Positions 43,861-51,906 of a stretch of 64,000 nt of DNA are shown one piece after another. Position 1 is the first letter of the stretch. Each line of letters opens with the position of its first letter. A program made the translations under genes and the position numbers. The notes under the pieces were generated by a model. The model was given only the letters and a program-made list of their open reading frames with translations. It did no database searches and had not been told where the DNA came from. The DNA comes from an uncultured Verrucomicrobiota bacterium (GTDB lineage: Bacteria > Verrucomicrobiota > Kiritimatiellia > CAIQIC01 > Lenti-01), in contig CALMBO010000029.1 in NCBI GenBank assembly GCA_937860055.1, positions 425,372 through 489,371 of the forward strand, given 5' to 3'.

Positions 43861-46833
43861 CTACGGGGAGGTCAATCCGATGCGGATGATCTTGCGCGAG
43901 CCGGAAACCGTCGTGATTGTGACGTTCGAGCCGCTCACCGTGTAGTGCACGCCCGCCGTCAGGTTCGAGAAGACCAGGGCCGCCCCCGTCACCACCGTGT
44001 CCGCCCCGTACACCGTTCCGAGCGAGTAGCCGCCCGGCACGGTGAAGAGGAAGTTGCCGGTGCCGTTCAGCGCCAGCGTCACGGGCGGAATGTCCACGTC
44101 CGCCGGCGCCGACACCGAAGGCGTCACGCTGTTGCTCGCGATGGGCAGCGCGCCGGCATCCAGCGCCGTCGCCGACAGGAAATAGGTGCCCGCCGTCGCC
44201 GGCGTGAAAGAGAACGCGCCGGTTCCCGAATCCCAGTTGTAGATCACGTCGGCGTCCGCCGGATCCTTCAGGACAAAGGCCCAGCTCGACGCCGTGCCGT
44301 TCTGCAGCGTGATCGTGTAGTTCATCTGCACGCCCACCGTGCCCGTCGTGTCGCCCACGATGGACACCGACGGGACAACCGCCCCTTCGGGATGGACGCC
44401 CGGCGTCATGTCTTCCGTGTTGGCCACGGCCGGAATCGTCCATTCCGAAGCCGTCCACGTCGGGTTGCCCTGGAAAACGCCGTTGTTCCGGAACGCACGG
44501 CGATCGGTATACTCCCAGGCCATTCCCGTGCCGTCCTGGCCGATCACGCCGTGCGCATCCTCCAGGATGCCGCTCACGCTGTTGCCGCCGCTGAAGAGGA
44601 AGTAGCCGTCATCGCCGTTCCCGTCCACCGTGCCGCTGGTATGGTTCGGCGCGGGGGACGTCGGATACGCCGTCGCGAAGTTCGTGCTGCCGGCGATCAC
44701 GTAGGTCGAACCGGCCGCCACCGTGCCCGTCAGCGCGATGTTGCCCCACGTGGTGCCGTTGATCTGGCGCGCCAGATACCAGCTTCCCGCCGTCAGGTCG
44801 ATGCTGGAAACTCCCGCGTTGTAAAGCTCGACAAAGCGCCCGCCCGTCGCGTTGTTGCTCGGGTCGGCCACCTCGGAAATGATCAGGACGCTGGGCTCGT
44901 GGTACACGAACTCCACCGTCACCGTCACCGGCGAGGCCGGCATGACGAACGTGTTCCCGACCACCGGCGCCGGCGTCATCGTCTCGTCCAGCACTGTGAT
45001 CGTGCTGACCAGGTAGCTGGCATCCGGAGTGGCGGTGATGGCAACCGTCGTCCCTTCGATGGCCTGTCCCGCCGGCGTTGTCGACACCGTGCCGTTTGTC
45101 GGCGTCGTGATCGTGATCGCATAGGGCGTTTTCACGCTGAAGTTGATCGAATTCGTCACGCTCGCCGCGGTGCCGTCCGTCGCCACCACCGTCGCCGAAT
45201 AATCGCCCGCCGGCGCCGTCGCCAGGATCGTGAATACGTTGTCCACCGCCGTGTAGTACGACCCGCCCAGCGTGCTGCTCCAGGAATAGCCGTAGGGCTC
45301 CGTCCCGTTCGCCGCCGTCGCCGTGATGGCCTCGCTCACCCCCTGCGTCACGGCGAACCCGCCCGTCCTGTCGAAGGTCACGTTGAACGTCGCCGCGCCG
45401 AACCAGATCCCGATGTCGTCGATGTTCACCCGGTCGCCGTCGCCGGTGAGCGTCAGGAACTGGACATAGGTCATGTTCGCCGGAATGGTGTCGATGACGC
45501 CCTCCATCAACGTCGCGCCGCTAGGATCGTAGGCGGCTTCGCCCACGTCGGTCCACGACACGCCATCCTGGCTGACCTGCACCTTGAAAGTTGTCGTGTT
45601 GTCCGTGCCGTAGTCGGCATACAGGAAGCTGATCTTGCTGATGGGCTGGGCAAACGCCTCGGCCGTGGCGATATAACCGGCGTTGGTGCTCAGGTAGCGG
45701 ATGCGGACCGAGGCCGCCCCGTTCTTCGGATCGCTGGTGGTCGTCCCCCGCAGCGCACCGTCGTGCCGCATCAGGACGCCGCTGACCGTCGAAGTGCCGG
45801 GAGCATAGCTGCTCAGGCCCGTCACGGTTTCGAAATCGATCAGGGTGTCGGGCGCCACGTAGACTTCGAACAAAACCGTCACCGTGACGGCCGAGGCCGG
45901 CATGGTGAAAGTGTTGCCCGTCAGCGCCACCGGATTCAATCCCTCGTCCAGCACCGTGATGCTGGCCACGCGGTACCCCGAGTCCGGCGTCGCCGTGATC
46001 GTCACGGTTTGGCCTTCGATGGCCTGGGTTGGCGGATCGGTCGTCACCGTGCCGTTCGTCGGCGCCGTGACCGTGATCGCATAGACAGGCACCACGTTGA
46101 ACGTGATGGCGTTGGTCACGCTCCGGGCGGCGCCATCCGTGGCCACCACCGTCGTCGTGTAGGCGCCCACCGGCGCGGCCGAGCTGATGTTGAACATGTT
46201 GTCGTTGGTCGCGTAGTAGCTGGAATCCAGCGTGCTGCTCCACGCAAAGCTGTAGGGTTCCGTCCCGTTCAATGCCGTCGCCGTGATCGCCGTGGCGGAG
46301 CCTTCAGGCACCAGGAATCCATCGGTCCGGTCAAACGTCACAAGGAAATCGGTCGCGCCGGCGGTGATTTGCACGCCATCCACGCCGACATTGCCGGCAA
46401 CCTTGGTCACGTAGTTGAACCGTACATAGCGCGACGCGTTCTTCAGGACATTCGTCACCGGTGCGGCCGTGGTGGGGATGCCGCTGCCGTTGTAGGCCGC
46501 CACGTCGGTCCAGCTCGCGCCATCCGTGGATTCCTCCACCTTGAAGACATAGGCGCCGCTGAGTGTGTTTGCCCGGAGCCAATACGAAACCTCGCCGGGC
46601 GCGCTGTCGAAGTTGATGGTCAGGATGTCCCCCGTCGTGTCGAATTTGGCCGCGCCGCCGCCAACGCCGTCATAACTGGTCGCATAGTCCGTTCCCAAAC
46701 CCGACTGCGTCCATCCCGTCGGCAGGAAGCTGTTCGTCCAAGGCCCCGACCAGCTGGTGGGAAGCGTCGCCTGCCCCATCGCCGTCGCCGCCAACATCCC
46801 GACACACGCCAACCCAACCAACCACTTTTTCAT
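43861..46833 (-). CDS. large exported protein: N-terminal jelly-roll-like domain shared with the downstream paralog, two approx 165-aa InlB-B-repeat-like modules, lamin-tail domain (LTD), C-terminal beta-rich region
   Basis: 990 aa with signal peptide MKKWLVGLACVGMLAATAMGQA. The duplicated module begins ATDFLVTFDRTDGF...ITATPDSGYRVASITV...MPASAVTVTVLF and recurs as AATFNVTFDRTGGF.... The LTD is SVLIISEVADPSNNATGGRFVELYNAGVSSIDLTAGSWYL...STYVIAGS. Confidence 0.8.
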   Translation of the reverse strand: MKKWLVGLACVGMLAATAMGQATLPTSWSGPWTNSFLPTGWTQSGLGTDYATSYDGVGGGAAKFDTTGDILTINFDSAPGEVSYWLRANTLSGAYVFKVEESTDGASWTDVAAYNGSGIPTTAAPVTNVLKNASRYVRFNYVTKVAGNVGVDGVQITAGATDFLVTFDRTDGFLVPEGSATAITATALNGTEPYSFAWSSTLDSSYYATNDNMFNISSAAPVGAYTTTVVATDGAARSVTNAITFNVVPVYAITVTAPTNGTVTTDPPTQAIEGQTVTITATPDSGYRVASITVLDEGLNPVALTGNTFTMPASAVTVTVLFEVYVAPDTLIDFETVTGLSSYAPGTSTVSGVLMRHDGALRGTTTSDPKNGAASVRIRYLSTNAGYIATAEAFAQPISKISFLYADYGTDNTTTFKVQVSQDGVSWTDVGEAAYDPSGATLMEGVIDTIPANMTYVQFLTLTGDGDRVNIDDIGIWFGAATFNVTFDRTGGFAVTQGVSEAITATAANGTEPYGYSWSSTLGGSYYTAVDNVFTILATAPAGDYSATVVATDGTAASVTNSINFSVKTPYAITITTPTNGTVSTTPAGQAIEGTTVAITATPDASYLVSTITVLDETMTPAPVVGNTFVMPASPVTVTVEFVYHEPSVLIISEVADPSNNATGGRFVELYNAGVSSIDLTAGSWYLARQINGTTWGNIALTGTVAAGSTYVIAGSTNFATAYPTSPAPNHTSGTVDGNGDDGYFLFSGGNSVSGILEDAHGVIGQDGTGMAWEYTDRRAFRNNGVFQGNPTWTASEWTIPAVANTEDMTPGVHPEGAVVPSVSIVGDTTGTVGVQMNYTITLQNGTASSWAFVLKDPADADVIYNWDSGTGAFSFTPATAGTYFLSATALDAGALPIASNSVTPSVSAPADVDIPPVTLALNGTGNFLFTVPGGYSLGTVYGADTVVTGAALVFSNLTAGVHYTVSGSNVTITTVSGSRKIIRIGLTSP
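44899..46356. repeat. two approx 500-bp homologous coding repeats separated by about 460 bp inside the 43861..46833 CDS
   Basis: Protein residues approx 160-325 and 480-645 are about 60 % identical. Confidence 0.65.
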
Positions 46834-47708: not shown

Positions 47709-48752
47709 TCAGCCGCCCGCCGGGACCAGCGGCGTCAACATCGCTTCCTGGTAGAGGCGCTGCACCATTTCCACGTCCAGGCCGTGGCCCGACTTGTAGG
47801 AGATGATCTCGCCGACGAACAGCCCCTCGTCGATCAGCGCGATGGCCGCCAGCAGGTCCAGCGTCGACCGGTGCCAGACCGCCTCCAGCGACTTTCCGTT
47901 GTGCGGCAGCAGCGCCTCGTTCCAATAGCGCAGGCGCCCCGCGACCAGCAGGTTGTCGAACGAATAGCCCAGGTTGCGGATGTCCGCGAACAGCAGGCCG
48001 ATCGTCTTGCAATACAGCATCTTCATCGCCGACGTGTTCGTCCGCGCCGTCGCCCCGTAGGCGAACTTCTCCGGATCCACCGCGAAGCGGATGCGCTGCT
48101 TGCCGATCGCCGTCTTGAAATCCACCGCCGCGTCGATGGCCAGCATCGGCCGCGCCGGATCCGCCGGCGCCAGCGTCAGGAAGCCCCCGCGGCCGTTGCA
48201 GACCGTCACGCGCTCGCGGACGGTCACGTAGGGCTGCGGACGGTTCACCGGCCGCACCCCGGCGCTCCGGATCGCCTCGACCAGCTCCGTGCTTCCCCGG
48301 TCGAACAGCGGCGGATCGCCCGAATCCAGCCGGATCAGCAGGTTGTCGATCCCCAGCCCCATGCGCAGGCTGATCATGTGCTCGGCCATGCGGATGTAGT
48401 TGTGCGGGGACCCGCTGCGCAGCACGATGTTGCTGACGACGTTGCCCGTCGTCCATACGTTGCGGATCGAGCACCGCACCGGCAGGCTGTCGGGCAGGTC
48501 CGTTCGCTCGAACCACCAGCCCTCCATGTCCGTCGGGCACAGCGTCAGCGTGCGGAGGCTCTTGCCGAAGAACGTGCCGCGCCCCCGCACCGTCACCGGA
48601 CGCTCGATGGTCGTCTGCCCGCGGGTGGCCGGCGCCGGCTTCGCCTCCCCCATCATGTCCCAATCCACCGGGTGGGTCTTCCATGCCCGGACGCCGTGCT
48701 CCAGCGCGGCCACGGGACCGCTCAACAATCTGCCTGCGGGAATTTCAAACAT
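47709..48752 (-). CDS. lpxC: UDP-3-O-acyl-N-acetylglucosamine deacetylase LpxC
   Basis: TTIERPVTVRGRGTFFGKSLRTLTLCP...MAEHMISL..., with zinc-ligand region HAEH-like and AFSHAEDD. The true start is probably the internal MMGEAKP at approx 48656. Confidence 0.8.
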   Translation of the reverse strand: MFEIPAGRLLSGPVAALEHGVRAWKTHPVDWDMMGEAKPAPATRGQTTIERPVTVRGRGTFFGKSLRTLTLCPTDMEGWWFERTDLPDSLPVRCSIRNVWTTGNVVSNIVLRSGSPHNYIRMAEHMISLRMGLGIDNLLIRLDSGDPPLFDRGSTELVEAIRSAGVRPVNRPQPYVTVRERVTVCNGRGGFLTLAPADPARPMLAIDAAVDFKTAIGKQRIRFAVDPEKFAYGATARTNTSAMKMLYCKTIGLLFADIRNLGYSFDNLLVAGRLRYWNEALLPHNGKSLEAVWHRSTLDLLAAIALIDEGLFVGEIISYKSGHGLDVEMVQRLYQEAMLTPLVPAGG

Positions 48753-48773
48753 GGATGGATTATCTTCGAATGC

Positions 48774-50492
48774 TCAGGGCCTGACAAACCCTAAATTCTC
48801 CGCCAGCTCCTCGGCCTCCGCGCCGGGATTCCGCCCCGTCCACAGCACCGGGCGCGGCCCCGCCAGCGCGCGCTGGCGGCGCATCTCGGCGGGATTGGAA
48901 CTCCCGCACACCAGCGCGTCCGCATAATACGTCGTGAACGGCGCCATCGGCCCGCCATCCTCCACCAGCAGGCAGACGCCCTCCGTCCTCAGCATGCACG
49001 AAAGCGACGAAATCAGCTCCGCCTCCGCATGGCCCAGATCCACGCCAATCCCCCCCGGACTTTCCTCCCAGACTGCCGGATAATCGCACAAATACAGCGC
49101 CCGCGCGCCGTGATCCACCCGCCCAGGCAGGGAGCCGGCCCGAATCCAGACCGTCTTCGCGCCGCTCCGTCGGATGCGGTCCAGCAGCGCCAGTCCGCGG
49201 TTCTGCCCCATCTCCAGCATCGATTCCAGATCGGGATCGGGGTTCACCGCCAGGATGGCGTCATCGCCGCTCAACACGATCCGCGGTTCGCCCTGCGCAT
49301 CCTTCGCCGCGCACTGGAACGCGCTGGCCGCCCAGTCCCGGTCGCGGAAAAGGCCGGATGTCTTCAGCAGCAGATATTGCATCGCGTCGGCCCCGTCCCG
49401 GAAACCTCCCGGATGCGACAGCCTCATCGCGCAGGGCTCGAACACCGGCACCGCGTCGAATCCTCCCTGTGCCACGGATTCCGGCAGCGCCACCGCCCCG
49501 CCGGCGCGCGACAGCCGGGCCACCGCTTCCTGCTTCGCCGCCTCCGGATCCGCCGCCTCCCACGCATCGACCTCCAGCGAGAAGGTCGCGCTGCGGGGAA
49601 AGTTGCCCGTGGCTTTCGTCGCCGCCAAATCGAATTCCACCCCCGCCCGGTCCGGAGATCCGGACACCGCGCGGAACCGGCGCGGCTCCGCCAGGTCGGG
49701 GAACAATCCGACGGCCCCGCCACCGGCCACGGCCACGATTGCGGGCGGCATTTCCTCCTGCAGCACCGGCAAACCGGGCGCCCCCGCCTGCAGGAAAATG
49801 CGCAGGCGGAACCGCCGGGAATCGCTTTTGAGCAGCAGCAGCCGCCCCTGCAGGATCCGCCGGCCGTTCTGCCGCGGAACCACCGCCAGGCTCCAATCGA
49901 TGTCTCCCTCGTCCAGGGCTCCCGCATAGAACCGCGGATCGTCCCGGCCGGGGAACTTCCCCCCCTCGCGGGCCTGGCGCGTCGGATGCAGTTCCCAGCG
50001 CTGCCCCGACGATACATCTTCCAGCTCCATTGAAAGCCCTGCCTGGCGGCCTCCCGGCAGGAACAGCGGATCGATCTCCTGCACCGCATCGTCCTTCGCA
50101 AAAACCAGCGACCAGCGGTGGGAGCTGACCACCGATTCAAATCGGACCGAGAGCGAACGGACGGCGCAGGGACCGAACGCGTTGCGGGTCAGGGGCAGCT
50201 CGACGACCGCCGCCGGCGGGGCCTGCGCCTCCGCGACCGGGAGGATCCGTTCGCCCCACTTCAACTCCGAAACCCCCTCCGGGATCCGGCCGATCCAGAC
50301 CCCGTCCTCGAAGGTCCAGCTCTTGTCCGGCGGCGGCGCGGATTCCGGCATATCCGTCACGATGGCCCAGCCGCCGGCTCCCTCGTACAAGGTCGGCGCC
50401 CCGCCCGCCGCCGCCGCCAGCGCGCCCCATGCCAGCAAACCGGCGGCCGCGCCCCGGCCTCGTCCAGGGAGGATGCCGGGACGGAATCTCAA
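48774..50492 (-). CDS. hypothetical exported protein
   Basis: Likely TTG start with a GGAGAG RBS 6 nt upstream. A signal-like segment AAAGLLAWGALAAAAGG follows. The protein is about 572 aa and has no recognisable family. The upstream in-frame ORF extension is Arg/Gly-rich and looks like an artifact. Confidence 0.5.
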   Translation of the reverse strand: MRFRPGILPGRGRGAAAGLLAWGALAAAAGGAPTLYEGAGGWAIVTDMPESAPPPDKSWTFEDGVWIGRIPEGVSELKWGERILPVAEAQAPPAAVVELPLTRNAFGPCAVRSLSVRFESVVSSHRWSLVFAKDDAVQEIDPLFLPGGRQAGLSMELEDVSSGQRWELHPTRQAREGGKFPGRDDPRFYAGALDEGDIDWSLAVVPRQNGRRILQGRLLLLKSDSRRFRLRIFLQAGAPGLPVLQEEMPPAIVAVAGGGAVGLFPDLAEPRRFRAVSGSPDRAGVEFDLAATKATGNFPRSATFSLEVDAWEAADPEAAKQEAVARLSRAGGAVALPESVAQGGFDAVPVFEPCAMRLSHPGGFRDGADAMQYLLLKTSGLFRDRDWAASAFQCAAKDAQGEPRIVLSGDDAILAVNPDPDLESMLEMGQNRGLALLDRIRRSGAKTVWIRAGSLPGRVDHGARALYLCDYPAVWEESPGGIGVDLGHAEAELISSLSCMLRTEGVCLLVEDGGPMAPFTTYYADALVCGSSNPAEMRRQRALAGPRPVLWTGRNPGAEAEELAENLGFVRP

Positions 50493-51307
50493 TTGGAACT
50501 CTCCCGGCCGCCCGGACGATTGCGCTTCTTGCCGGTCCCGCGGGGGTCCAGGCCCTTCAGCGACTTCAGCTGGTCGCGGAGAAACGCCGCCTTCTCGTAG
50601 TTTTCCAGTTCGACGGCGCGGGCCAGCTCCTCCCGCAGCGTCTCCGCCTCGCTCCGCGGACGACGCCGCTCCACCTGCACCAGCAGTTCGCGCAGCGTTT
50701 CCAGCTCCGGCGGCGGCGGCACCGGCGAACCATCCTCGTTCGCCGGCTCGTAGTTCTCCGCGAAGAACCCCTCCAGGTCCTTCACCCCTTCGCGCACCGT
50801 CTTCCCGGCCTCGTCGAACCGTCCCGACTGCATGCACACCTCGGCGTAGGCGCGGGCCGACATCATGCGCATGTAGGGATAAAGCTGCATGAACTGCCAC
50901 GCCACCTCGTCGTCCAGCGCATATTCCGACACGATGTCGATCAGGTCCAGGTTGTGGTCGCAATCGCGCACCACGCCCTTGAAATCGCCCAGCGCATAGA
51001 ACGCCATGATCCGGTAGTAGTACTGCATGACCTCCTGCTGCAGCTCGGAACAGGCGTCGAAATCCAGCTTGTACGGCAGCACGTTCCCCGGCGCCCGCCG
51101 CTCCTCGTCGATGTAATGGTCGCACAGCGAAAGCGCGCCGCGGGGACGCGTCCCGTCCGGCCGCCCCTCGGTCTCCATCTGGAAAAGCCCCAAGTCCAGC
51201 CGGAGCTGCAGCTTCCGCGTGCCGTCGTCCGCCTCGATCCAGCGGGCGCTCACTTCGTTGGGATCGTAGGGCCATCCCCCCACGAGGCTTGAAATGTCCT
51301 TGCTCAT
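50489..51307 (-). CDS. hypothetical protein with C-terminal UVR (UvrB/UvrC-like) motif
   Basis: 272 aa. ELARAVELENYEKAAFLRDQLKSLK resembles the UVR domain. The remainder is unknown. Confidence 0.55.
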   Translation of the reverse strand: MSKDISSLVGGWPYDPNEVSARWIEADDGTRKLQLRLDLGLFQMETEGRPDGTRPRGALSLCDHYIDEERRAPGNVLPYKLDFDACSELQQEVMQYYYRIMAFYALGDFKGVVRDCDHNLDLIDIVSEYALDDEVAWQFMQLYPYMRMMSARAYAEVCMQSGRFDEAGKTVREGVKDLEGFFAENYEPANEDGSPVPPPPELETLRELLVQVERRRPRSEAETLREELARAVELENYEKAAFLRDQLKSLKGLDPRGTGKKRNRPGGRESSN

Positions 51308-51335
51308 CTTGAAATAGCCTCTGTCATGGAAAACA

Positions 51336-51359
51336 CCCCGGCCGGAAACCCGGCCGGGG
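51336..51359 (-). terminator. rho-independent terminator of the small K/C-rich protein gene
   Basis: CCCCGGCCGG-aaac-CCGGCCGGGG, followed on the minus strand by UGUUUUCC. Confidence 0.75.
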
Positions 51360-51385: not shown

Positions 51386-51841
51386 TTATTCGGCCGGTGC
51401 AGCCGGAACTTCCGCAGGGGCGGCTTCAACGGCCGGAGCCGCTTCGGCCGGCGCGGCCTCGGCGGCCGCTTCCGCCTCCTGGGCCTTGCACTTGGCCTTC
51501 TTTGCCTCGCACTTGGCTTTCTTGTCCGCTTTCTTCGCCTCGCACTTGGCTTTCTTTTCGGCCTTCCGGGCTTCGCACTTCGCCTTCTTCTCGGCCTTCT
51601 TGGCCTTGCACTTTTCCTTGCAGGCGGCCTTGTCTTCCTCGCTCATGCTCGCGCAGCACTTGGACTTCTTGGCCTTGCAGGCCTTCTGGTCGGCCGCCGG
51701 GGCTTCCTCCTTCTGCACCTCGACCGCCGCCTCGTCCTTCGCCGGCTCCTCCGCCGCCTTCTTCCCGAAAATCCACCAGGCCGGCGCGCTCGACGCCGAC
51801 ACGAACAGGGCCGCCAACACCATCATCGCCAGTTTCTTCAT
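51386..51841 (-). CDS. small secreted Lys/Ala/Cys-rich protein with 10-residue periodic repeats; hypothetical
   Basis: ATG preceded by a GGAGGAAG RBS. The signal peptide is MKKLAMMVLAALFVSASSAPA. The body reads CKAKKAEKKAKCEARKAEKKAKCEAKKADKKAKCEAKKAKCKA, with Cys every 10 residues. The tail is Ala/Pro/Glu-rich. The gene is monocistronic, with its own terminator. Confidence 0.75.
   Translation of the reverse strand: MKKLAMMVLAALFVSASSAPAWWIFGKKAAEEPAKDEAAVEVQKEEAPAADQKACKAKKSKCCASMSEEDKAACKEKCKAKKAEKKAKCEARKAEKKAKCEAKKADKKAKCEAKKAKCKAQEAEAAAEAAPAEAAPAVEAAPAEVPAAPAE
51482..51619. repeat. approx 30-bp coding tandem repeat (KAEKKAKCEA units)
   Basis: Direct DNA repeats of gcctcgcacttggctttctt...-like units inside the 51386..51841 CDS. 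Confidence 0.65.
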
Positions 51842-51906
51842 TGTCTTCCTCCGGTTTGTGAATGAACCATTTGCATGAGTATACCGCCATCCGGCGGGGC
51901 CGCAAC

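What the first reader, a model, noticed from the sequence alone, without database searches (positions are those of the whole stretch)
51386..51841. Monocistronic, strongly signalled small secreted protein made of Lys/Ala/Cys decapeptide repeats
**What the sequence shows.**
- The protein is 151 aa: a signal peptide, a short acidic linker, approx 45 residues of KAEKKAKCEA-type repeats with a Cys exactly every 10 residues (CKAKKAEKKAKCEARKAEKKAKCEAKKADKKAKCEAKKAKCKA), and an Ala/Pro/Glu tail.
- It has a near-consensus RBS (GGAGGAAG) and its own textbook terminator (CCCCGGCCGG-aaac-CCGGCCGGGG plus a U-tract).
- This implies high, independent expression.

**Interpretation.**
- The i, i+10 cysteine spacing on a Lys-rich predicted helix suggests a disulfide-laddered coiled coil or a metal/polyanion-binding periplasmic protein.
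- I know of no characterised family with this repeat.
Basis: seen in the sequence. Interest (0 to 1): 0.55.

Follow-up and report, generated by a model that had tools for sequence, protein, structure and literature searches.

The report
Secreted lysine-rich helix with cysteine stripe
A real, lineage-restricted gene of anaerobic Kiritimatiellia bacteria encodes a small exported protein whose long, highly positive helix carries a row of lysine-ringed cysteines; it belongs to no described family and its function is unknown, most likely a cell-envelope component.

Summary
The ORF (window 51841..51386, minus strand, 151 aa) is real. It has GC3 of 85% against 66% for the window, and about 40 orthologues in Kiritimatiellia/PVC metagenome genomes. 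All of them share five features:
- a Sec signal peptide ending A-x-A;
- a Trp-rich, basic mature N-terminus (WWIFGKK);
- an acidic linker;
- a 46-132-residue Lys/Ala/Glu/Cys core;
- an acidic Ala/Pro/Glu tail.

Two details of the finding are wrong.
- **Cysteine period.** It is 11 residues (a 33-nt repeat), not 10. Family-wide, spacings of 4, 7 and 11 dominate, so the cysteines form one stripe on a helix. Each is ringed by Lys at i±3/4 and lies opposite an Ala stripe.
- **"Monocistronic".** This is only half right. A promoter (TTGCCn-16/17-TATAnT), a Shine-Dalgarno site and a GC hairpin with a U-tract are conserved in 27/27 loci. However, the next gene starts 25-35 nt after the hairpin. In addition, one genome has deleted the ORF while keeping promoter and hairpin. 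The gene therefore looks like the promoter-proximal cistron of an attenuated operon.

Pfam, NCBIfam, PDB sequence search and Foldseek gave no match. AlphaFold predicts one confident 60-residue helix.

The best guess is a membrane-interface-anchored polycationic envelope rod with auxiliary reactive thiols. A disulfide-laddered coiled coil is not favoured. Interest is moderate.

The parts
51900..51905 (-). -35 element TTGCGG. It starts 1 nt after the DegT stop codon.
   Evidence: TTGCCn / TTGTCA / TTGACT is aligned in 27/27 orthologous loci, with T-T-G nearly invariant.
51878..51883 (-). -10 element TATACT, preceded by a conserved G-G/T. The spacer to the -35 element is 16 nt.
   Evidence: A-T-A is invariant and (G)GTATAnT is conserved in 27/27 loci. 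The generic scan missed it because the -35 element matches only 3 of 6 positions.
51842..51871 (-). Predicted short C/A-rich 5'UTR with the Shine-Dalgarno site GGAGGA at 51852..51847.
   Evidence: A CAACCCC / AACC motif and GGAGGA or AAAGGA are conserved across loci. The transcription start site is inferred, not shown.
51386..51841 (-). ORF of 151 aa plus the stop codon.
   Evidence: A gene of identical length was called in an independent assembly, L036.
51779..51841 (-). Sec signal peptide, aa 1-21: n-region MKK, h-region LAMMVLAALFV, c-region SASSAPA. Cleavage is predicted after A-P-A.
   Evidence: Across 38 sequences, position -1 is always Ala and position -3 is Ala or Ser in 35 of 38. Cleavage itself is inferred.
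51758..51778 (-). Mature N-terminus WWIFGKK (aa 22-28), a Trp-rich basic cluster proposed to anchor at a membrane interface.
   Evidence: This is the most conserved part of the mature protein: W22/W23 are invariant and K28 nearly so. Variants such as WSWPWSKK, WWWTRK, WWWPFGKK and WPWSRK keep 2-3 Trp plus 2 basic residues.
51683..51757 (-). Acidic Ala/Glu/Pro linker, aa 29-53. The net charge of residues 22-53 is -3.
   Evidence: pLDDT is below 50 for residues 34-48.
51482..51682 (-). Polycationic Lys/Ala/Glu/Cys helical core, aa 54-120, net charge +17, with 9 Cys.
   Evidence: AlphaFold gives helix 49-64, a break at S-M-S, then helix 68-128 with pLDDT 87-96. The Cys resultant is 0.96 on an 11/3 helix, and Ala lies 174 degrees away.
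51494..51613 (-). 33-nt (11-aa) tandem repeat, 3.6 copies at 80% match. The unit is KAKCEAKKAEK.
   Evidence: TRF score 156. The register is printed.
51389..51481 (-). Acidic Ala/Pro/Glu tail, aa 121-151, net charge -7, predicted disordered after residue 128.
   Evidence: An AAEAAPAxE-type tail occurs in most orthologues, and the C-terminal residue is Glu in 29 of 38.
51326..51359 (-). GC hairpin of 10 bp with loop GUUU, followed by UGUUUUCC. It is an intrinsic terminator or attenuator.
   Evidence: Found. It is conserved in 27/27 loci, and 3 pairs show double changes, for example in L021 and L028. It occurs once in the window and once per locus. The fold z-score is -3.0.
50489..51307 (-). Downstream gene: a 272-aa cytoplasmic protein with a UvrB/UvrC motif. 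Its ATG is 28 nt after the hairpin stem.
   Evidence: Pfam UVR, E = 4.9e-09. It lies adjacent to the small gene in every locus and contig that carries the small gene, even where the upstream gene differs.
48774..50492 (-). 572-aa protein of unknown family. Its TTG start overlaps the UVR gene's stop codon by 4 nt.
   Evidence: No Pfam or NCBIfam hit. Syntenic in 28 loci.

Best explanation
**What the sequence shows or predicts**

The gene encodes a Sec-exported protein of about 13.7 kDa that is restricted to one clade of anaerobic Kiritimatiellia (PVC superphylum). After predicted cleavage behind A-x-A, the mature protein has four parts:
1. A Trp-rich, basic N-terminus (WWIFGKK).
2. A flexible acidic linker of about 25 residues.
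3. A rigid helix of 60-75 residues (about 9-11 nm) with net charge around +14 to +17. Each cysteine lies on one face, ringed by Lys at i±3/4/7, opposite an Ala stripe flanked by Glu.
4. An acidic Ala/Pro/Glu tail.

The gene has its own conserved sigma-70-like promoter, a C/A-rich leader, a strong SD site and a conserved hairpin.

**What is inferred**
- The Trp/Lys cluster parks the protein at a membrane interface in the periplasm.
- The polycationic rod binds anionic envelope material (phospholipid or LPS head groups, peptidoglycan or acidic polysaccharide) as an abundant structural or charge-buffering component.
- The Lys-caged cysteines, whose pKa should be lowered, add a tunable and non-essential chemistry: reversible capture or cross-linking through thiolates.
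- The hairpin acts as an attenuator. The small protein is therefore made in excess, and read-through feeds the UVR-motif gene and the 572-aa gene. The LpxC-like gene that follows them has a promoter-like site of its own.
For: - **The gene is real and conserved.**
- **The signal peptide and W-rich N-terminus are the best-conserved parts.** In the variants, composition (2-3 Trp plus 2 basic residues) is conserved rather than exact sequence.
- **Helix prediction.** One confident long helix with disordered flanks.
- **Charge pattern.** It is -3 / +17 / -7 in the window protein. Family medians are -3 / +14 / -3.
- **Cys geometry.**
  - Spacings of 4, 7 or 11 account for 111 of 204 intervals, against 36.8 ± 5.4 in shuffles (0 of 2000 shuffles reach the observed count).
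  - The Fourier peak is at 3.70 residues.
  - The context logo is KKAxCxAKK.
- **The core function appears to be Cys-independent.** Orthologues with only 1-3 Cys keep all other features (L020, L021, L022, L028, P0011).
- **Cysteines are nevertheless retained.** Cys is conserved at 0.57 in pairwise alignments, against 0.08-0.28 for other minority residues.
- **Expression signals are conserved.** Promoter, SD site and hairpin are present in 27/27 loci.
- **Operon reading.** The downstream ATG lies 25-35 nt after the hairpin. L029 has deleted the ORF but kept the promoter and hairpin. The downstream genes are tightly packed or overlapping.
- **Envelope-related neighbours.** A DegT sugar aminotransferase lies upstream and an LpxC-like gene downstream.
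Against: - No experiment or expression data could be brought to bear. The short metagenome contigs examined are DNA-like, not transcripts.
- The whole five-gene block is syntenic, so the neighbours say little about function.
- The Ala face is too weakly apolar for classical membrane binding (<H> = -0.55, muH about 0.3).
- The anionic partner is unidentified.
- The gene is dispensable in one lineage, L029. This argues against an essential structural role, unless it is an assembly artefact.
- The AlphaFold alignment was shallow (13 sequences, mean pLDDT 68.5). High helix confidence is expected for any Ala/Lys/Glu-rich sequence.
Confidence: 0.35

Rival explanations
1. **Thiol-centred function.** The protein would be a periplasmic sponge or carrier. 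The row of Lys-caged thiolates would capture one of three things:
- soft metals (Cu(I), Zn, Ni, Co, Cd), bridged between helices;
- anionic sulfur species (polysulfide or thiosulfate), held as persulfides;
- oxidants or electrophiles.

This would work like SilE/PcoE, the Csp copper-storage proteins or the Sud polysulfide carrier.
For: - Cys makes up 6% of a protein that is otherwise Lys/Ala/Glu.
- Cys is kept far better than other minority residues.
- Cys always lies on one helix face in three different repeat units: the 7-mer KKADCKA in L017/L018, the 11-mer in the window and L012, and an 8-mer in P0016.
- Four to six Lys surround each Cys. This should stabilise a thiolate and attract anions.
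- A conserved N-terminal cluster, CCxxM(S/T)xE(E/D)KAxCxxxC, is found in 13 sequences.
- The lineage is anaerobic and quinone-less, so thiols probably stay reduced.
Against: - Spacings of 11 and 7 residues (16.5 and 10.5 Å) are too long for one helix to chelate a metal. Chelation would need oligomerisation across a Lys-lined, mutually repelling face.
- Some orthologues have only 1-3 Cys.
- There are no CxC, CxxC or His/Met motifs.
- There is no Pfam match to DUF326/Csp, metallothioneins or SilE.
- No metal- or sulfur-metabolism neighbours are present.
Confidence: 0.25
2. **The first reader's model.** Under this model the protein forms a coiled coil zipped by a ladder of interchain disulfides. 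It would then form dimers or a cross-linked envelope lattice, analogous in role to the chlamydial cysteine-rich envelope proteins or to Braun lipoprotein.
For: - Strict helical periodicity of the cysteines.
- A long, confident helix.
- Two usable faces, Ala and Cys, could in principle build sheets.
- PVC relatives (Chlamydiae, Planctomycetes) are known for disulfide-cross-linked envelope proteins (own knowledge).
Against: - Cys sits in the middle of the Lys face, not on the apolar stripe.
- The core has virtually no L/I/V/F, so a canonical coiled-coil core is absent.
- Cys number and positions turn over quickly, even between proteins that are 79% identical.
- Near-Cys-free orthologues exist.
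- The lineage is obligately anaerobic, and the cultured class member lacks quinones. Dsb genes could not be checked here.
Confidence: 0.12
3. **Extracellular role.** The protein would be released from the cell and act outside it, in one of two ways:
- as a polycationic glue for acidic or sulfated exopolysaccharide or eDNA in granules and biofilms;
- as a cationic antimicrobial whose charge is masked by the acidic flanks.
For: - The acid-base-acid charge architecture resembles antimicrobial-peptide precursors.
- The Trp-rich N-terminus resembles tritrpticin- and indolicidin-type motifs (own knowledge).
- Kiritimatiella produces extracellular polymeric substances.
- The genomes come largely from digesters and sludge, judging from the record titles.
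Against: - No secretion system, immunity gene or processing protease lies nearby.
- The gene is single-copy and sits at a fixed housekeeping-type locus in all 27 genomes that carry it. That is unlike bacteriocin loci.
- A Sec signal alone delivers a protein only to the periplasm of a diderm cell.
Confidence: 0.08
4. **Mainly regulatory role.** The ORF would matter chiefly as an expression platform. Translating a repetitive leader cistron upstream of an attenuator hairpin would tune the downstream operon, and the protein product would have little function of its own.
For: - L029 lost the ORF but kept the promoter and hairpin.
- The hairpin is more sequence-conserved than the protein.
- The repeat region evolves fast.
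Against: - The signal peptide, A-x-A site, W-rich N-terminus, charge architecture and Cys phase are all conserved at the protein level across 38 sequences. A purely regulatory ORF would not keep these.
- The stop codon lies 27 nt or more before the hairpin, so ribosome-hairpin coupling is not obvious.
Confidence: 0.05

Closest known systems
TolA domain II, and ER/K-type single alpha-helix (SAH) rods
   Same: - A long Lys/Ala/Glu(Asp)-rich low-complexity helix with almost no large hydrophobic residues.
- Located in the periplasm and tethered at its N-terminal end.
- Predicted as one extended helix.
   Different: - The N-terminus is predicted to be a cleaved signal peptide followed by a Trp cluster, not a transmembrane anchor.
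- There is no C-terminal globular domain.
- The helix has a strong net positive charge rather than balanced E/K.
- It carries a periodic Cys stripe.
- There is no sequence match to any PDB chain.
Braun lipoprotein (Lpp)
   Same: - A small, helical envelope protein.
- Its own strong promoter and SD site, plus a stable 3' hairpin.
- Presumably abundant.
   Different: - No lipobox Cys.
- The C-terminal residue is Glu rather than Lys in 29 of 38 family members.
- No hydrophobic heptad core.
- No Pfam LPP hit.
SilE/PcoE periplasmic metal sponges and Csp1/Csp3 copper-storage proteins
   Same: - Small periplasmic proteins.
- Ligand residues recur with helical periodicity on one face.
   Different: - The ligands here would be lone cysteines 7-11 residues apart. 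SilE uses His/Met pairs at i,i+3/4, and Csp proteins have a Cys-lined four-helix-bundle core.
- No DUF326 hit and no bundle prediction.
11-mer (11/3) amphipathic repeat proteins: group-3 LEA proteins, apolipoproteins and alpha-synuclein
   Same: - An 11-residue repeat rich in Lys, Ala and Glu gives a straight stripe on an 11/3 helix.
- Lys flanks the stripe.
   Different: - The apolar face is Ala only (<H> = -0.55).
- Other family members use 7- or 8-residue units.
- The protein is exported to the periplasm.
- It contains cysteines.
Chlamydial small cysteine-rich envelope protein OmcA
   Same: - A small, Cys-rich, exported envelope protein in the PVC superphylum.
   Different: - OmcA is a lipoprotein with dense, non-helical Cys clusters that form disulfides (own knowledge).
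- Here Cys is only 6%, is helically phased, and there is no lipobox.

Membership tests
Sec/SPase I-exported proteins | A basic n-region, a 10-15-residue hydrophobic h-region, and a c-region with small residues at positions -3 and -1. | tested here: met
   The sequence is MKK / LAMMVLAALFV / SASSAPA. Across 38 sequences, position -1 is always Ala and position -3 is Ala or Ser in 35 of 38. Cleavage itself was not shown.
Bacterial lipoproteins (including Lpp and OmcA) | A lipobox [LVI][ASTVI][GAS]C at the end of the signal peptide. | tested here: not met
   No Cys occurs before residue 55 in the window protein. None occurs at the cleavage site in any of the 38 sequences.
Braun lipoprotein Lpp | A C-terminal Lys for peptidoglycan linkage and a hydrophobic heptad core forming a trimeric coiled coil. 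| tested here: not met
   The C-terminal residue is Glu in 29 of 38 and Lys in 5 of 38. L/I/V/F/W/Y make up 2.9% of the core. There is no Pfam hit.
Csp copper-storage proteins (Pfam DUF326) | A profile match, and a four-helix bundle whose core is lined with Cys. | tested here: not met
   No Pfam family matched at E ≤ 0.1. AlphaFold gives a single 60-residue helix, not a bundle. Foldseek against the PDB returned 0 hits.
Metallothioneins | About 20-30% Cys arranged in CxC, CC and CxxC clusters. | tested here: not met
   Cys accounts for 9 of 151 residues (6%). There is one CC and no CxC or CxxC. The spacings are 4, 7 and 11.
Canonical coiled coils | A heptad or hendecad pattern with large hydrophobic residues at the core positions. 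| tested here: not met
   The periodicity is present, but the only apolar residues are Ala and Cys. Oligomerisation is not testable with these tools.
Intrinsic (Rho-independent) terminators | A GC-rich stem-loop followed directly by a U-tract, with the structure conserved through compensatory changes. | tested here: met
   The stem has 10 GC pairs, a 4-nt loop and the tail UGUUUU. It is conserved in 27/27 loci, and 3 pairs show double changes. The U-tract is weak or absent in L020, L023 and L025. Termination efficiency was not tested.
Sigma-70-type promoters | -35 and -10 hexamers with a 16-18-nt spacer, conserved among orthologous loci. | tested here: met
   The pattern TTGCCn - 16/17 nt - TATA(G/C/T)T aligns in 27/27 loci, including six loci with a different upstream gene. 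Activity was not tested.
Any curated protein family or solved structure | A significant profile, sequence or fold match. | tested here: not met
   Pfam gave 0 hits, NCBIfam 0, PDB phmmer 0 at E ≤ 1, and Foldseek against the PDB 0.

The most novel reading that the evidence does not exclude
The family could be a new kind of periplasmic "thiolate ruler". In this reading it is a rigid, membrane-tethered polycationic single helix. It displays hyper-reactive, Lys-caged cysteines at fixed intervals of 1.05 or 1.65 nm. These would act in one of two ways:
- as a covalent carrier or sponge for anionic sulfur species or soft metals;
- as a redox-switchable zipper that cross-links the envelope when an anaerobe meets oxidants.

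Lineages would tune capacity by expanding or contracting 7- or 11-residue repeat units.
Probability: 0.15. Interest if true: 0.7.

Novelty: new variant of a known kind. Interest (0 to 1): 0.42.

Why it matters
**Likely abundance.** If the protein is as abundant as its signals suggest, it is a major, completely unannotated envelope component of a clade of Kiritimatiellia. This clade recurs in anaerobic digesters, sludge and similar anoxic systems.

**Unusual design.** The protein combines a Trp-cluster anchor, an acidic linker, a +14 to +17 helix with Lys-ringed cysteines, and an acidic tail. This layout is unusual and easy to test biochemically. It could reveal either a new way of organising the periplasm in PVC bacteria or a new thiol-based capture chemistry.

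**A caution for annotation.**
- The repeat region breaks assemblies.
- The protein evades all profile libraries.
- High-GC overlapping ORFs (for example a 506-aa ORF in the same frame) can mask the true 151-aa gene.

**Limits.** The finding does not overturn anything known, and the function remains inferred.

Tried and rejected
- **Protein family libraries.** Pfam and NCBIfam scans of the protein gave no hit.
- **Solved structures.** PDB sequence search and Foldseek of the AlphaFold model against the PDB gave no hit.
- **Exhaustive homologue search.** phmmer against 1.84 billion representatives found only 13 relatives, all the same small protein. No distant family emerged.
- **N-terminal module profile (A5).** This was meant to find other cargo on the same signal-peptide-plus-WW motif. 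It found only truncated or chimeric fragments.
- **WW motif as a general sorting tag.** A regex scan of all ORFs in about 350 kb of loci and the window found the motif only in this family, plus one unrelated false positive. The idea was rejected on this limited sample.
- **Hairpin as a genome-wide REP element.** Rejected. The pattern occurs once in the window and once per locus.
- **Rfam.** A scan of the region gave only sub-threshold terminator-like hits.
- **Transcript evidence from short contigs.** Contigs L033-L035 extend beyond the predicted transcript ends and have low coverage, so they are DNA. No expression evidence was obtained.
- **Synteny as functional evidence.** It was discounted because DegT, the small gene, the UVR gene, the 572-aa gene and the LpxC-like gene are collinear in nearly all loci.
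- **Literature.** Full-text searches for a characterised Lys/Cys-rich periplasmic helix protein or a Kiritimatiellia envelope proteome found nothing relevant.
- **An alignment query that failed.** The search for related loci with the family alignment failed for lack of a conserved 7-10-column stretch. The conserved UVR neighbour was used as the handle instead.
- **Not possible here.** A genome-wide check for Dsb genes, multimer structure prediction and SRA metadata look-up could not be done.
Full report
**1. The observation**

*The ORF.*
- Third-position GC is 85% against 66% for the window, so the frame is coding.
- An independent assembly of the same organism (L036, 100% identical over 600 nt) has the same 151-aa gene called.
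- A 506-aa ORF in the same frame and several antisense ORFs overlap it. These are the usual high-GC artefacts.

*Flanking signals.*
- GGAGGA lies 5 nt before the ATG.
- The hairpin CCCCGGCCGG-GUUU-CCGGCCGGGG followed by UGUUUUCC lies at 51359..51336.

*One error.*
- The cysteines are not 10 residues apart. They sit at positions 55, 62, 63, 74, 78, 89, 100, 111 and 118, giving spacings of 7, 1, 11, 4, 11, 11, 11, 7.
- Tandem Repeats Finder reports a 33-nt unit with 3.6 copies.
- The repeat is therefore the hendecad KAKCEAKKAEK.

**2. A real but narrow family**

*Homologue searches.*
- A word-indexed search of 5.8 billion proteins found 13 homologues.
- An exhaustive phmmer search of 1.84 billion representatives also listed 13 hits, four of them new. 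All are small metagenome proteins with the same layout.

*Genomic loci.*
- I used the conserved downstream neighbour as a handle and retrieved 29 genomic loci from MAGs. Their records are labelled Kiritimatiellia, Verrucomicrobiota or Lentisphaerae, and several carry digester or bioreactor isolate names.
- In 27 of the 28 loci that contain the region upstream of the neighbour, an orthologous small gene sits directly upstream.

*Features shared by all 38 curated sequences.*
- A signal peptide ending in small-x-Ala.
- A mature N-terminus with 2-3 Trp followed by two basic residues: WWIFGKK in 17, and otherwise WSWPWSKK, WWWTRK, WWWPFGKK, WPWSRK and similar.
- An acidic Ala/Glu/Pro linker.
- A Lys/Ala/Glu(/Cys) core of 46-132 residues with net charge +6 to +22 (median +14).
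- A short acidic Ala/Pro/Glu tail, usually ending in Glu.

*Database and structure matches.*
- Pfam, NCBIfam, PDB sequence search and Foldseek against the PDB all returned nothing.
- A profile of the N-terminal module alone found only truncated or chimeric fragments and no other architecture.

**3. Anatomy of the helix**

*Structure prediction.*
- AlphaFold2 was run on a 13-sequence alignment. It predicts helix 49-64, a break at S-M-S, and then one uninterrupted helix 68-128 with pLDDT 87-96.
- Residues 22-48 and 129-151 have low confidence.
- The S-x-x-E/D pattern after the break looks like a helix N-cap (inference).

*Geometry in the window protein.*
- On an 11/3 helix the cysteines cluster tightly (resultant 0.96).
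- Ala forms a stripe 174 degrees away (resultant 0.89).
- Lys lies on the Cys side, and Glu flanks the Ala stripe.

*Family-wide pattern.*
- Of 204 nearest Cys-Cys intervals, 111 are 4, 7 or 11 residues. Shuffles give 36.8 ± 5.4, and 0 of 2000 reach the observed count.
- The Fourier peak of the Cys indicator is at 3.70 residues.
- The context logo is K(-4) K(-3) A(-2) x C x A(+2) K(+3) K(+4) A(+5). Each thiol is therefore ringed by Lys from the neighbouring turns.
- Different lineages reach the same geometry with different units: an 11-mer in the window and L012, the 7-mer KKADCKA in L017/L018, and an 8-mer in P0016.
- These statistics are inflated by relatedness and by tandem duplication. The agreement among different repeat units is the stronger argument.

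*Coiled-coil potential.*
- The core has almost no large hydrophobic residues: 2.9% L/I/V/F/W/Y family-wide and none in the window protein.
- Mean hydrophobicity is -0.55.
- A canonical coiled-coil core or a classical membrane-binding face is therefore absent.

**4. Are the cysteines essential?**
- Cys number ranges from 1 to 14.
- L020, L021, L022, L028 and P0011 have 1-3 Cys but keep every other feature.
- In individual repeats, Cys is replaced by Ser, His, Tyr, Trp or Gly. All of these are single-nucleotide neighbours of TGC.
- In pairwise alignments, however, Cys is conserved at 0.57, whereas other minority residues score 0.08-0.28. BLOSUM scoring favours C-C matches, so this is indicative only.
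- My reading is that the cysteines are selected for but are auxiliary. The Cys-independent features (anchor, charge architecture) carry the core function.

**5. Expression signals and operon structure**

*Promoter and leader.*
- Aligning the upstream regions of 27 loci shows a conserved TTGCCn, a 16/17-nt spacer and (G)GTATA(G/C/T)T. In the window these are TTGCGG at 51905..51900 and TATACT at 51883..51878.
- A C/A-rich leader and GGAGGA or AAAGGA follow.
- The promoter persists in six loci where the upstream gene is not DegT.

*Hairpin.*
- It is present in all 27 loci and is nearly sequence-invariant, with compensatory changes in L021 and L028.
- It occurs once per locus and once in the window, so it is not a dispersed repeat.
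- Rfam has nothing above threshold.

*Downstream genes.*
- The next gene encodes a 272-aa cytoplasmic protein with a UvrB/UvrC motif. It starts only 25-35 nt after the hairpin in every locus.
- A 572-aa gene follows, overlapping its stop codon by 4 nt.
- An LpxC-like gene starts 21 nt further on. It does have a promoter-like site of its own.

*The L029 deletion.*
- Relative to its close relative L019, L029 has lost about 490 nt that comprise the RBS and the entire ORF.
- It retains the promoter, the first 18 nt or so of the leader and the hairpin, all directly upstream of the UVR gene.

*Conclusion.*
- The simplest reading is that this promoter also feeds the downstream genes, and that the hairpin attenuates rather than ends transcription.
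- "Strongly signalled" is therefore supported. "Monocistronic" is not established.
- I found no expression data. The short contigs carrying homologues are low-coverage DNA.

**6. Context**
- DegT, the small gene, the UVR gene, the 572-aa gene and the LpxC-like gene are collinear in nearly all loci. Adjacency alone is therefore weak evidence for function.
- Only the pairing of the small gene with the UVR gene survives replacement of the upstream gene.
- The envelope flavour of DegT and LpxC is noted but not weighted.
- The only cultured reference I read, Kiritimatiella glycovorans, has a Gram-negative envelope with peptidoglycan. It is obligately anaerobic and forms no respiratory quinones or cytochromes (PMC5148204).
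- If that holds for this clade, which is an extrapolation, DsbB-type oxidation is unlikely and periplasmic thiols would be mostly reduced.

**7. Most likely mechanism**

*Shown or predicted.*
- Export signal.
- Conserved Trp/basic N-terminus.
- Acid-base-acid charge blocks.
- A long helix.
- A Lys-caged Cys stripe opposite an Ala/Glu face.
- Conserved promoter, SD site and hairpin.

*Inferred.*
- The Trp/Lys cluster anchors the processed protein at a membrane interface. What is conserved there is composition, not exact sequence, which fits lipid-interface binding better than a specific protein contact.
- The cationic rod binds anionic envelope material as an abundant structural or charge-buffering element.
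- The thiolates add tunable capture or cross-linking chemistry.
- I give this reading 0.35.

*Rivals.*

| Rival | Confidence | Main point |
|---|---|---|
| Thiol-centred sponge or carrier for soft metals, sulfane sulfur or oxidants | 0.25 | Needs oligomerisation, because 7-11-residue spacing cannot chelate within one helix |
| Extracellular glue or antimicrobial | 0.08 | The fixed single-copy locus argues against it |
| Mainly regulatory leader ORF | 0.05 | Protein-level conservation argues against it |

**8. Comparison with known systems**
- The protein resembles TolA domain II and SAH rods in composition and predicted shape.
- It resembles Lpp in size and expression signals.
- It resembles SilE and the Csp proteins in having helically phased ligand residues.
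- It resembles LEA and apolipoprotein repeats in its 11-mer periodicity.
- It fails the defining features of each (see the membership table). It is a member of none of them.

**9. Verdict**
- This is a genuine, previously undescribed, clade-restricted family of small exported low-complexity helical proteins with an unusual Lys-caged cysteine stripe.
- The specific structural interpretation is not favoured.
- Function remains inferred.
- Interest is moderate at 0.42. The design is curious and easily testable, but nothing yet contradicts existing knowledge or opens a long-standing question.

Noticed in passing
window 51326-51359 (-); the equivalent sites in L001-L028: The hairpin after the small gene (CCCCGGCCGG..CCGGCCGGGG) is nearly sequence-invariant across 27 loci, although the flanking proteins have diverged to 60-70% identity. 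It occurs only once per locus. That is more conservation than a plain terminator needs, so it may be an attenuator, an RNA-stability element or a protein-binding element.
   Followed up: partly
L029 3600-3950, compared with L019 1880-2520: A clean deletion of about 490 nt removes the RBS and the whole small ORF. The promoter, the start of the leader and the hairpin are left directly upstream of the UVR-motif gene. I did not check whether this is an assembly collapse.
   Followed up: partly
window 48774-50492 (-): This is a 572-aa protein with no Pfam or NCBIfam match. Its TTG start overlaps the UVR gene's stop codon by 4 nt, and it is syntenic in 28 loci. It is a conserved unknown that appears translationally coupled to the UVR-motif protein.
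   Followed up: no
window 47709-48787 (-): A divergent LpxC-like gene scores 125.7 bits against Pfam LpxC. Against TIGR00325 it scores only 94 bits, below the cut-off of 187. A promoter-like site, TTGTCA-17-GATAAT, ends 6 nt before its ATG, so the mRNA may be leaderless.
   Followed up: no
window 51842-51877 (-) and the orthologous leaders: A C/A-rich motif (GTTCAACCCC..AACC) is conserved between the -10 element and the Shine-Dalgarno site. It may be an unstructured translation-enhancing leader.
   Followed up: no
L010 5203-5922; proteins P0005, P0018, P0020, P0021: The Lys/Ala/Cys repeat region disrupts assemblies. There are runs of N inside the L010 ORF. Several database proteins are chimeric or truncated immediately after the conserved N-terminus.
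   Followed up: partly
window 50489-51307 (-): This is a 272-aa protein with a C-terminal UvrB/UvrC motif and a weak TPR hit. It is 60-87% identical across the clade and always lies next to the small gene. Its function is unknown. The only weak NCBIfam similarity is to the UVR motif region of McsA.
   Followed up: partly
window 43864-46833 (-): This is a 990-aa protein combining InlB B-repeat (Flg_new_2), lamin-tail and F5/8 type C (discoidin) domains. It is probably a large secreted glycan-binding protein.
   Followed up: no
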